This document shows positions 22,737-22,970 of a stretch of 64,000 nt of DNA, piece after piece. A model generated the notes under the pieces. The model was not told the origin of the DNA and made no database searches. It saw only the letters and a list, made by a program, of their open reading frames with translations. Each line of letters opens with the position of its first letter. Position 1 is the first letter of the stretch. Origin of the DNA: Octopus vulgaris (lineage: Eukaryota); NCBI GenBank assembly GCA_951406725.2, contig OX597842.1, forward strand, positions 31,000,001 through 31,064,000. The letters run 5' to 3'. The translations under genes and the position numbers were made by a program.

Positions 22737-22964
22737 GGAGTAAACACATAAATGTGAAACAAGGTGGAAAAAAAGAGTACTAAAAAAACCAGGGGTAGAG
22801 TAATATGCTTTATTTAAAGCAGCAGAAAATTCCACAAAACCTGTTACTCTGAGTTTCCTGTTGCCGTTCGTCCGACAGTTTTTGCTAGAAAAAACTGTCC
22901 GATGAACAGCAACGGGAAACTCAGAGTAACAGGTTTTGTTGAATTTTCTGCTGCTTTAAATAAA

Positions 22965-22970
<6 letters not shown>
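22737..22970. mobile_element. Palindromic hammerhead element, copy 3 (most complete; ~82-bp arms; motifs at 22841-22878 minus and 22895-22932 plus)
   Basis: Arms 22803-22884 and 22889-22970 around CTAG; plus motif ctgt-CCGATGA-acagcaacgg-GAAA-ctcagag-TA-acag. Confidence 0.8.

What the first reader, a model, noticed from the sequence alone, without database searches (positions are those of the whole stretch)
22737..22970. Multi-copy palindromic mini-element carrying back-to-back hammerhead ribozyme motifs
Seen: four related ~180-235 bp insertions in (TA)n tracts (4633-4812, 17077-17282, 22737-22970, 57636-58140). In the complete form a ~65-bp unique leader is followed by a ~165-bp palindrome centred on CTAG. 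Each arm carries ctgt-C(T/C)GA(T/C)GA-acg-GCAA-cgt-GAAA-ctcNgag-TA-acag, i.e. stem I, CUGANGA core, GNRA-capped stem II, GAAA, short stem III and a GUA triplet, one motif per strand. Established: minimal type I hammerheads mark Penelope-like element pseudo-LTRs, and single Penelope insertions often show an inverted partial duplication. Inference: the same palindrome centre recurs in three independent copies, so the whole ORF-less hairpin unit appears to move as one non-autonomous element, and transcripts from either strand could self-cleave. Individual copies carry core or stem mutations (CCGAUGA, CGGACGA, weakened stem II), so activity of these copies is uncertain.
Basis: partly seen in the sequence, partly recalled or inferred. 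Interest (0 to 1): 0.8.

Follow-up and report, generated by a model that had tools for sequence, protein, structure and literature searches.

The report
Penelope retroelement stubs with hammerhead ribozymes
These short hairpin repeats in what is probably an octopus genome carry real hammerhead-ribozyme motifs, but they are most likely ordinary leftovers of a Penelope-like jumping gene (two heavily shortened ends inserted back to back), an arrangement already described, rather than a new hairpin element that moves as one piece.

Summary
The repeats and the hammerhead motif are real (intact CUGAUGA core only at 4743; 0 of 20,000 shuffles give the fold). The interpretation mostly fails. Only two of four copies (17077, 22737) are palindromes. 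In 4633 the CTAG is ordinary internal sequence and the junction lies 66 nt upstream; 57636 has one arm, split by another insertion. The 'leader' is the element's 3' tail. Public runs of three organisms hold the family (2592, 1337, 1230 contigs laid) with native sequence 5' of CTAG and several junctions, though CTAG recurs. The same hammerhead frame is that of Hydra-clade Penelope-like elements (Hydra-2_aMil). In 13 inverted pairs of that coral family the tail is on exactly one arm (13 of 13), junctions vary (12 distinct), and one junction recurs in two subfamilies. So each hairpin is most likely one insertion made of two 5'-truncated cDNAs. No ORF was linked to the octopus family. Left open: copies 2 and 3 share a rare core variant, flipped relative to the tail; a probable RNA run shows A>G at the cleavage-site adenosine, suggesting editing. 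New member of a known kind; interest 0.22.

The parts
22737..22807 (-).
   Evidence: continuity with the arm shown by loose ends behind 4809
22841..22878 (-). Copy 3 left arm hammerhead motif (core CGGACGA, weakened stem II); predicted cut between 22845 and 22844
22885..22888 (.). Copy 3 junction region (CTAG); left arm keeps native sequence through CTAG, right arm starts in the A-run
22895..22932 (+). Copy 3 right arm hammerhead motif (U4C core, weakened stem II); predicted cut after 22928
22933..22965 (+). Copy 3 right arm 3' part, ending at the short 3' end (after AATAAAG) into (TA)n
17077..17226 (-). Copy 2 left arm with tail; hammerhead 17217-17180 (U4C core, 3-bp stem II)
17221..17276 (+). 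Copy 2 right arm, native CTAG kept, 28-nt deletion removes the cleavage site; short 3' end
4633..4662 (-). Copy 1: inverted 30-nt tail end (extremely truncated partner, long 3' end)
4663..4809 (+). Copy 1 forward arm: 66 nt of native upstream sequence, CTAG at 4729-4732, hammerhead, short 3' end
4704..4727 (+). Native hairpin just 5' of CTAG; candidate reverse-transcriptase stall that would make CTAG a junction hot spot (inferred)
   Evidence: z -3.68, 1 of 200 shuffles; region chosen by eye; family variant 4719 A>C adds a pair
4739..4776 (+). Only hammerhead in the window's family with an intact CUGAUGA core; predicted cut after 4772
57636..57711 (-). Copy 4 tail, with the tail hairpin intact (57697-57674)
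57712..58068 (.). Unrelated 357-nt insert splitting copy 4, with a strong terminal hairpin; Helitron-like by recalled anatomy
58069..58145 (-). Copy 4 single arm, older subfamily, core partly deleted, no inverted partner
   Evidence: same 3' variant seen in loose ends behind 4783
16496..16530 (-). Probable fifth, decayed tail-end fragment beside a TA-rich tract
   Evidence: (E 8e-5)

Best explanation
Each hairpin is most likely a single insertion of a Hydra-clade Penelope-like retroelement, made of two extremely 5'-truncated copies of its hammerhead-bearing 3' end joined head to head, one ending at a long 3' site (with a ~70-nt tail) and one at a short 3' site. Shown: the two fixed 3' ends, the inverted geometry, (TA)n sites, native sequence continuing 5' of CTAG, more than one junction, high copy number in three organisms, and a hammerhead frame shared with Hydra-2_aMil. 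Inferred: a dimeric RT/GIY-YIG protein nicks both strands in (TA)n and primes one cDNA from each end, at the two internal start sites; both cDNAs stop early, often at the native hairpin 5' of CTAG, and join by micro-homology (CTAG self-pairing or AA:TT fold-back), so the same centre can arise repeatedly. The stubs are then dead on arrival; read-through transcripts would form long double-stranded RNA rather than active ribozymes. Whether the source RNA is an autonomous element or a longer ORF-less one is not resolved.
For: Window anatomy: 3 of 4 copies have a long end on one side and a short end on the other, inverted. Family reach: 2592, 1337, 1230 and 158 contigs laid in X2-X5; 2 of 32 listed pieces bridge CTAG with native sequence by 31+ letters each side; loose ends go on 5' of 4661/4672. 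Same frame elsewhere: 121 metagenome loci shown (pattern built from the window's motif); a same-strand PLE ORF end lies upstream of 26 of 75 F1/F2 motifs with 300+ nt upstream, against 2 of 44 other matches; L042 ORF has RWK, DKT and CxCx5C, the Hydra-clade marks; F1 equals Hydra-2_aMil, whose stem I, core, stem III arms and GUA are identical to the window's. In that family 21 of 33 scorable arms have an inverted partner; 13 of 13 pairs have the tail on exactly one arm (read by eye; L057, a self-palindromic contig, left out); 12 distinct junctions in 13, L006 = L046 across subfamilies; shared flanking strings of 8-20 nt (putative TSDs) in 11 of 13. Literature: dual minimal hammerheads on opposite strands 100-700 bp apart read as truncated PLEs (PMC4209133); inverted 5'-truncated copy, one-ended tail, (TA)n targeting (PMC8557442); both-strand cleavage and extension, predicted dimer, two internal start sites defining the tail (PMC11167929).
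Against: No ORF is linked to this family: 0 tblastn hits of 120 Hydra-like proteins in the window, no whole genome held. The published octopus element Hydra-1_oBim has a different hammerhead. Two profile models of the coral tails did not find the window's tails (best E 4.3; 0 hits); only a hand-made hairpin descriptor did (1 hit, at copy 4's tail; 0.13 expected). Copies 2 and 3 share N7=C, not listed at 4% or more in any run, each on the arm that keeps the C after CTAG; independent origin needs two slightly different templates, gene conversion or repeated CpG decay. CTAG is the best-supported single inverted join among those shown for X3 (9 contigs). The twin-ended priming step rests on a lizard Poseidon element in vitro, not on this clade.
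Confidence: 0.8

Rival explanations
1. A CTAG-centred hairpin arose once as a truncated insertion and was then re-mobilised as a non-autonomous unit by the PLE protein, its inner part sometimes flipping between copies.
For: Copies 2 and 3 share the centre, a rare N7=C in phase with the junction type, and further variants on the tail arm (tail consensus). Nine X3 contigs show an inverted join at 4729.
Against: Inner markers are in opposite phase to the tail in copies 2 and 3, so a flip must be added. Copies 1 and 4 do not fit. Native sequence runs through CTAG and other joins exist. An identical junction occurs in two coral subfamilies. Local gene conversion between copies 5.7 kb apart would give the same sharing.
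Confidence: 0.13
2. A MITE-like DNA transposon with long terminal inverted repeats in TA targets; the hammerhead look is incidental.
For: Palindromic form and TA flanks; no Rfam hammerhead hit; monomer folds do not favour the hammerhead.
Against: Ends are asymmetric (tail on one side), 5' ends vary, copies 1 and 4 are not palindromes; the motif is absent from 20,000 shuffles and matches a published PLE hammerhead frame.
Confidence: 0.04
3. A non-LTR retrozyme that replicates through self-cleaved circular RNA.
For: ORF-less, short, type I hammerhead; retrozymes are proposed PLE derivatives (bioRxiv 10.64898/2026.07.22.740005).
Against: Retrozymes are head-to-tail tandem units; here copies are dispersed and inverted, and five of six arms have a damaged core or cleavage site.
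Confidence: 0.03

Closest known systems
Hydra-clade Penelope-like elements, e.g. Hydra-2_aMil (Craig et al. 2021, PMC8557442)
   Same: Hammerhead stem I (ctgt/acag), core, stem III arms (actc-N-gagt) and cleavage A identical to Hydra-2_aMil; (TA)n targeting; two 3' ends about 70 nt apart; head-to-head ultra-short pairs with the tail on one arm.
   Different: Stem II only 2-3 bp without G10.1-C11.1; U4C common; flanking sequence differs; no ORF linked here; not Hydra-1_oBim, and 0 hits for five family motifs in the paper's supplement.
Minimal hammerheads of metazoan PLE pseudo-LTRs (Cervera and de la Pena 2014, PMC4209133)
   Same: Type I, short helix I, extra nucleotide after A9, small palindromic helix III; dual motifs on opposite strands close together, read as truncated PLEs.
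   Different: Reported pairs are 100-700 bp apart and have a long helix II; here the cores are about 25 nt apart and helix II is very short.
Poseidon element PAc of the green anole (Frangieh et al. 2024, PMC11167929)
   Same: AT-rich targets, two internal start sites giving a tail, hammerhead next to them.
   Different: Other clade; tail 30-40 nt rather than ~70; in PAc the ORF starts in the hammerhead, whereas the 45-codon frame here found no homolog.
Non-LTR retrozymes
   Same: Short, ORF-less, type I hammerhead.
   Different: Head-to-tail tandem arrays; not seen here.

Membership tests
Hydra-clade Penelope-like element | Single ORF with RT and C-terminal GIY-YIG, with RWK, DKT and CxCx5C motifs | tested here: inconclusive
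   0 tblastn hits of 120 Hydra-like proteins in the 64-kb window; no genome held. Met only in the look-alike family (L042).
Hydra-clade Penelope-like element | Canonical hammerhead near the 3' end | tested here: met
   4739-4776; frame identical to Hydra-2_aMil except stem II.
Hydra-clade Penelope-like element | Insertion into (TA)n | tested here: met
   4 of 4 copies.
Penelope-like element (general) | 5' truncation with an inverted 5'-truncated copy attached | tested here: met
   3 of 4 window copies; further joins in contigs.
Penelope-like element (general) | Tail extension at one end only | tested here: met
   Long end on one side, short end on the other in copies 1-3; tail 71 nt, longer than the usual 30-40.
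Hydra-clade Penelope-like element | Tail sequence or structure homologous to known Hydra tails (my own added test) | tested here: inconclusive
   Two profile models negative; hand-made descriptor hits copy 4's tail only.
Penelope-like element (general) | Target-site duplication | tested here: inconclusive
   Hidden by (TA)n in the window; putative 8-20 nt duplications in 11 of 13 coral pairs.
Type I minimal hammerhead ribozyme | Core CUGANGA, GAA, A15.1-U16.1, H17 | tested here: met
   Intact in 1 of 6 arms; family-wide only U4C varies at 4% or more in the DNA runs (108, 83, 85 contigs).
Type I minimal hammerhead ribozyme | Stem II closed by G10.1-C11.1 | tested here: not met
   A opposite A/G/U over a 2-bp GNRA stem; 2-bp stems II and U4C occur in nature, U4C lowers activity in vitro (PMC3088659).
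Type I minimal hammerhead ribozyme | Self-cleavage, probably as a dimer | not testable with these tools
   Needs an assay; contigs cannot show RNA ends.
Non-LTR retrozyme | Head-to-tail tandem units each with a hammerhead | tested here: not met
   Dispersed, inverted copies.
MITE | Fixed symmetric ends | tested here: not met
   Tail on one side only; copies 1 and 4 asymmetric.

The most novel reading that the evidence does not exclude
In octopods a CTAG-centred, ORF-less hammerhead hairpin has become a second-hand mobile unit of a Hydra-clade Penelope element, flipping its inner segment between copies, and the host's ADAR edits the hammerhead's own A15.1, cleavage-site A17 and A1.1 in its transcripts, switching the ribozyme off.
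Probability: 0.12. Interest if true: 0.6.

Novelty: new member of a known kind. Interest (0 to 1): 0.22.

Why it matters
As most likely read, it adds an octopus family to the Hydra clade and gives a clean genomic signature of how Penelope-like elements insert (long end on one side, short end on the other, junctions crowded just 5' of the hammerhead), which bears on the open question of their mechanism. If the A>G signal is editing, it would be a natural case of A-to-I editing at a hammerhead cleavage site; my one search for that listed 4 papers, by title and abstract start on engineered RNA systems.

Tried and rejected
No whole genome held, so no genome-wide copy count or tree. No RNA holder listed on record; X5 is only a guessed RNA run. 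Family-specific patterns found nothing in metagenome, prokaryote and viral contigs. Rfam: no hammerhead; the weak miRNA hits reflect the hairpin. The 45-codon frame from the AUG in the core of copy 2 found no homolog (0 of 46 candidates; 0) and shifts in copy 3; in Hydra elements the hammerhead lies after the ORF, so I rejected it as an ORF start. Tail profile models R1 and R2 did not find the window's tails. A 3' splice site at CTAG, as in D. virilis Penelope, was considered and could not be tested. The G/T difference between tail and tail-less arms near 4784 is unscorable: one search lists no difference beyond 4777 even where the window's copies differ, so the table seems blind near the ends. 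Contig depth was not used as copy number. Table 6 (RNA ends) was empty, which contigs cannot inform. Most prokaryote-genome matches look like chance hits; those in one bin are animal-like repeats. One paper on PLE hammerhead variants, recalled by DOI, was not held and is not used. Earlier-findings look-ups by sequence, place and a long word list returned nothing.

Full report
Setting. The window is microsatellite-rich animal DNA. A LINE fragment at 10733-11776 is 81% identical over 59% of its length to a protein named as Octopus vulgaris (P0044), so the host is probably an octopod (inference). No whole genome is held.

Observation. BLAST of 22737-22970 finds the four copies named and a weak fifth tail fragment at 16496. 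Read in the sense of the hammerhead, the unit is: native upstream sequence, CTAG, A-run, stem I, core, short stem II, GAAA, palindromic stem III, GUA, stem I', 33 nt to a short end after AATAAAG, then a 71-nt tail to a long end. Copy 3 (22737) is a tail-bearing arm on the minus strand plus a tail-less arm on the plus strand. Copy 2 (17077) is the same with 28 nt deleted from the right arm. Copy 1 (4633) is a 147-nt forward arm with a short end, joined to an inverted 30-nt piece of the long end; its CTAG is internal. Copy 4 (57636) is one older arm split by a 357-nt insert. So two copies, not three, share the centre. The motif is not chance: a type I descriptor gives 1 strict hit (4743) and 2 with U4C, against 0 in 60 window shuffles and 0 of 20,000 unit shuffles (descriptor written after seeing the motif). 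One of six arms has an intact core. Monomer folds do not favour the hammerhead, as expected for this dimer-dependent type (PMC4209133), and the full hairpin is far more stable (-125.5 kcal/mol).

Family-wide view. Twenty of 24 listed runs hold the stretch or part of it, in three organisms and 8 studies. I laid 4 of those runs on copy 1: 2592, 1337, 1230 and 158 contigs. (a) The 66 nt upstream of CTAG are covered in all four runs; 2 of the 32 pieces listed bridge CTAG with 31 or more letters on each side (X2 record 1, X5 record 26), and loose ends in X4 and X5 continue further 5'. (b) Loose ends behind 4809 match the 'leader' reversed (10, 8, 7, 2 contigs): it is the tail. (c) Inverted joins occur at 4729 (9 contigs, X3), 4751 (1, X3) and 4712 (1, X5); mixed 5' flanks lie before 4735 (16, 12, 8 contigs); 180 loose ends were not shown. 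CTAG is thus a recurrent junction but not the only one. (d) In the core only U4C reaches 4% in the DNA runs (108, 83, 85 contigs, counted up to 128); position 11.1 varies A/G/U.

What it belongs to. A relaxed pattern from the motif returned 121 metagenome loci from 18 of 64 parts scanned and 32 genome-collection loci: 162 matches, 108 with a stem I of 3 or more pairs. A same-strand PLE ORF end lies upstream of 5 of 32 F1 and 21 of 43 F2 motifs that have 300 nt upstream, against 2 of 44 others (the queries came from L130 and L042, which count among the hits). Pfam gave GIY-YIG for 2 of the 7 Hydra-type ORFs scanned, below its cut-off, and nothing for L042; the L042 ORF has RWK, DKT, YRDD and CxCx5C, the marks of the Hydra clade, which nearly always inserts into (TA)n (PMC8557442 section 11). 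F1 is the published Hydra-2_aMil, whose stem I, core, stem III arms and cleavage A are identical to the window's; stem II differs. The published Hydra-1_oBim has another hammerhead, and five motifs of the window's family are absent from that supplement. The match of core and stem III is partly circular, as the pattern fixed them; stem I and the insertion anatomy were not fixed.

The decisive comparison. In the Hydra-2_aMil-type loci, 21 of 33 scorable arms have an inverted partner. Leaving out L057 (a self-palindromic contig), 13 pairs remain: all 13 have the tail on exactly one arm (by eye), 12 are ORF-less with 22-69 nt between the stems III, there are 12 distinct junctions, and 11 show shared flanking strings of 8-20 nt, putative target-site duplications. 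L006 and L046 belong to different subfamilies yet have the same fold-back junction at a self-complementary site just 5' of stem I, the place CTAG holds in the octopus family. An identical centre can therefore arise twice. L130 is the copy-1 type: a long arm carrying the endonuclease end plus a very short inverted arm with the tail.

Mechanism. Shown: geometry, two fixed 3' ends, (TA)n sites, variable junctions. From literature: PAc cleaves and extends both strands, is predicted to be a dimer, starts at two internal sites that define the tail, and does not need hammerhead cleavage in vitro (PMC11167929). Inferred: one cDNA is primed from each side of the break, one at the long and one at the short site; both stop early and join by micro-homology. 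A native hairpin at 4704-4727 ends just before CTAG (z -3.68, region chosen by eye) and the common 4719 A>C variant adds a pair; a stall there would make CTAG a hot spot.

What does not fit neatly. Copies 2 and 3 both carry N7=C on the arm that keeps the C after CTAG and N7=U on the other, but the tail is on opposite arms. N7=C is not listed at 4% in any run. This rules out plain copying of one master, yet points to shared history: two slightly different templates, gene conversion across 5.7 kb, repeated CpG decay, or a re-mobilised hairpin with a flip (0.13). The tail homology to coral elements rests on a hand-made descriptor; two profile models missed it. No ORF was linked.

Possible editing. 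No matching T>C appears, there is no DNA from the same animal, and it is one run, so a transcribed subfamily is not excluded. H17 cannot be G and inosine resembles G (PMC3923133 passages), so editing would be predicted to lower cleavage.

Literature seen. PMC4209133 and PMC11167929: parts 1-2 of 4; bioRxiv 10.64898/2026.07.22.740005: part 1 of 5; PMC8557442: passages, section 11, supplement parts 2 and 52 and searches; PMC3088659, PMC13282606, PMC3923133: passages. PMC13282606 lists 31 recently active Penelope-like families in O. vulgaris and does not contain the word ribozyme; its repeat library, which I did not see, may already hold this family. Searches showed no paper on this family or on mobile PLE hairpins; subscription papers, Repbase and Dfam were not searched. 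An earlier finding of this scan (e1-7788996) reached a like verdict in another genome; it is not independent support.

Verdict. Real motif, known architecture, probably an unnamed octopod Hydra-clade family: new member of a known kind, interest 0.22.

Noticed in passing
window 33450-33820: A second, unrelated 377-nt palindrome (85% arm identity) beside (TA)n with a hammerhead-like motif at 33625 (CUGAUGA, long stem II, GAAA, palindromic CGAUCG, GUA, 3-bp stem I); the left arm starts inside stem III. Looks like an inverted pair of another Penelope-like family; single copy in the window.
   Followed up: partly
run X5 laid on window 4763, 4772, 4773: A>G changes nearly confined to the probable RNA run, at hammerhead positions A15.1, A17 and A1.1; possible A-to-I editing.
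   Followed up: partly
L002-L144, 39-57 nt after the predicted cut; window 57697-57674: A conserved tail hairpin (RCUC, variable paired stem, UU bulge, GAGY) in Hydra-clade tails, 43 matches by regular expression; candidate protein-binding or priming signal.
   Followed up: partly
window 2675-3047 and 59532-60293: The abundant SINE-like repeat also forms head-to-head inverted pairs with like ends facing outward, resembling the two-ended insertions.
   Followed up: no
window 57712-58068: 357-nt insert with a strong terminal hairpin ending near CTAG; Helitron-like by recalled anatomy; single copy in the window.
   Followed up: partly
window 23941-24229 and 26492-26780: Inverted pair of a 289-nt repeat at 97% identity, 2.3 kb apart, each with (TA)n outside and trinucleotide tracts inside.
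   Followed up: no
window 10733-11776: 3' fragment of a LINE ORF (RT end, PHD-like insert in relatives), 81% identical to an Octopus vulgaris protein over part of its length.
   Followed up: partly
L123, L128, L130, L132-L134, L137, L144: One 'bacterial' genome bin holds eight loci with this hammerhead pattern, several beside Penelope-like ORFs: probably animal host DNA in the bin.
   Followed up: partly
L133:3-1343 and 3494-5200; L130:1933-2475: Other Penelope-like ORFs (GIY-YIG above Pfam cut-off) nested next to the Hydra-type copies in TA tracts.
   Followed up: no
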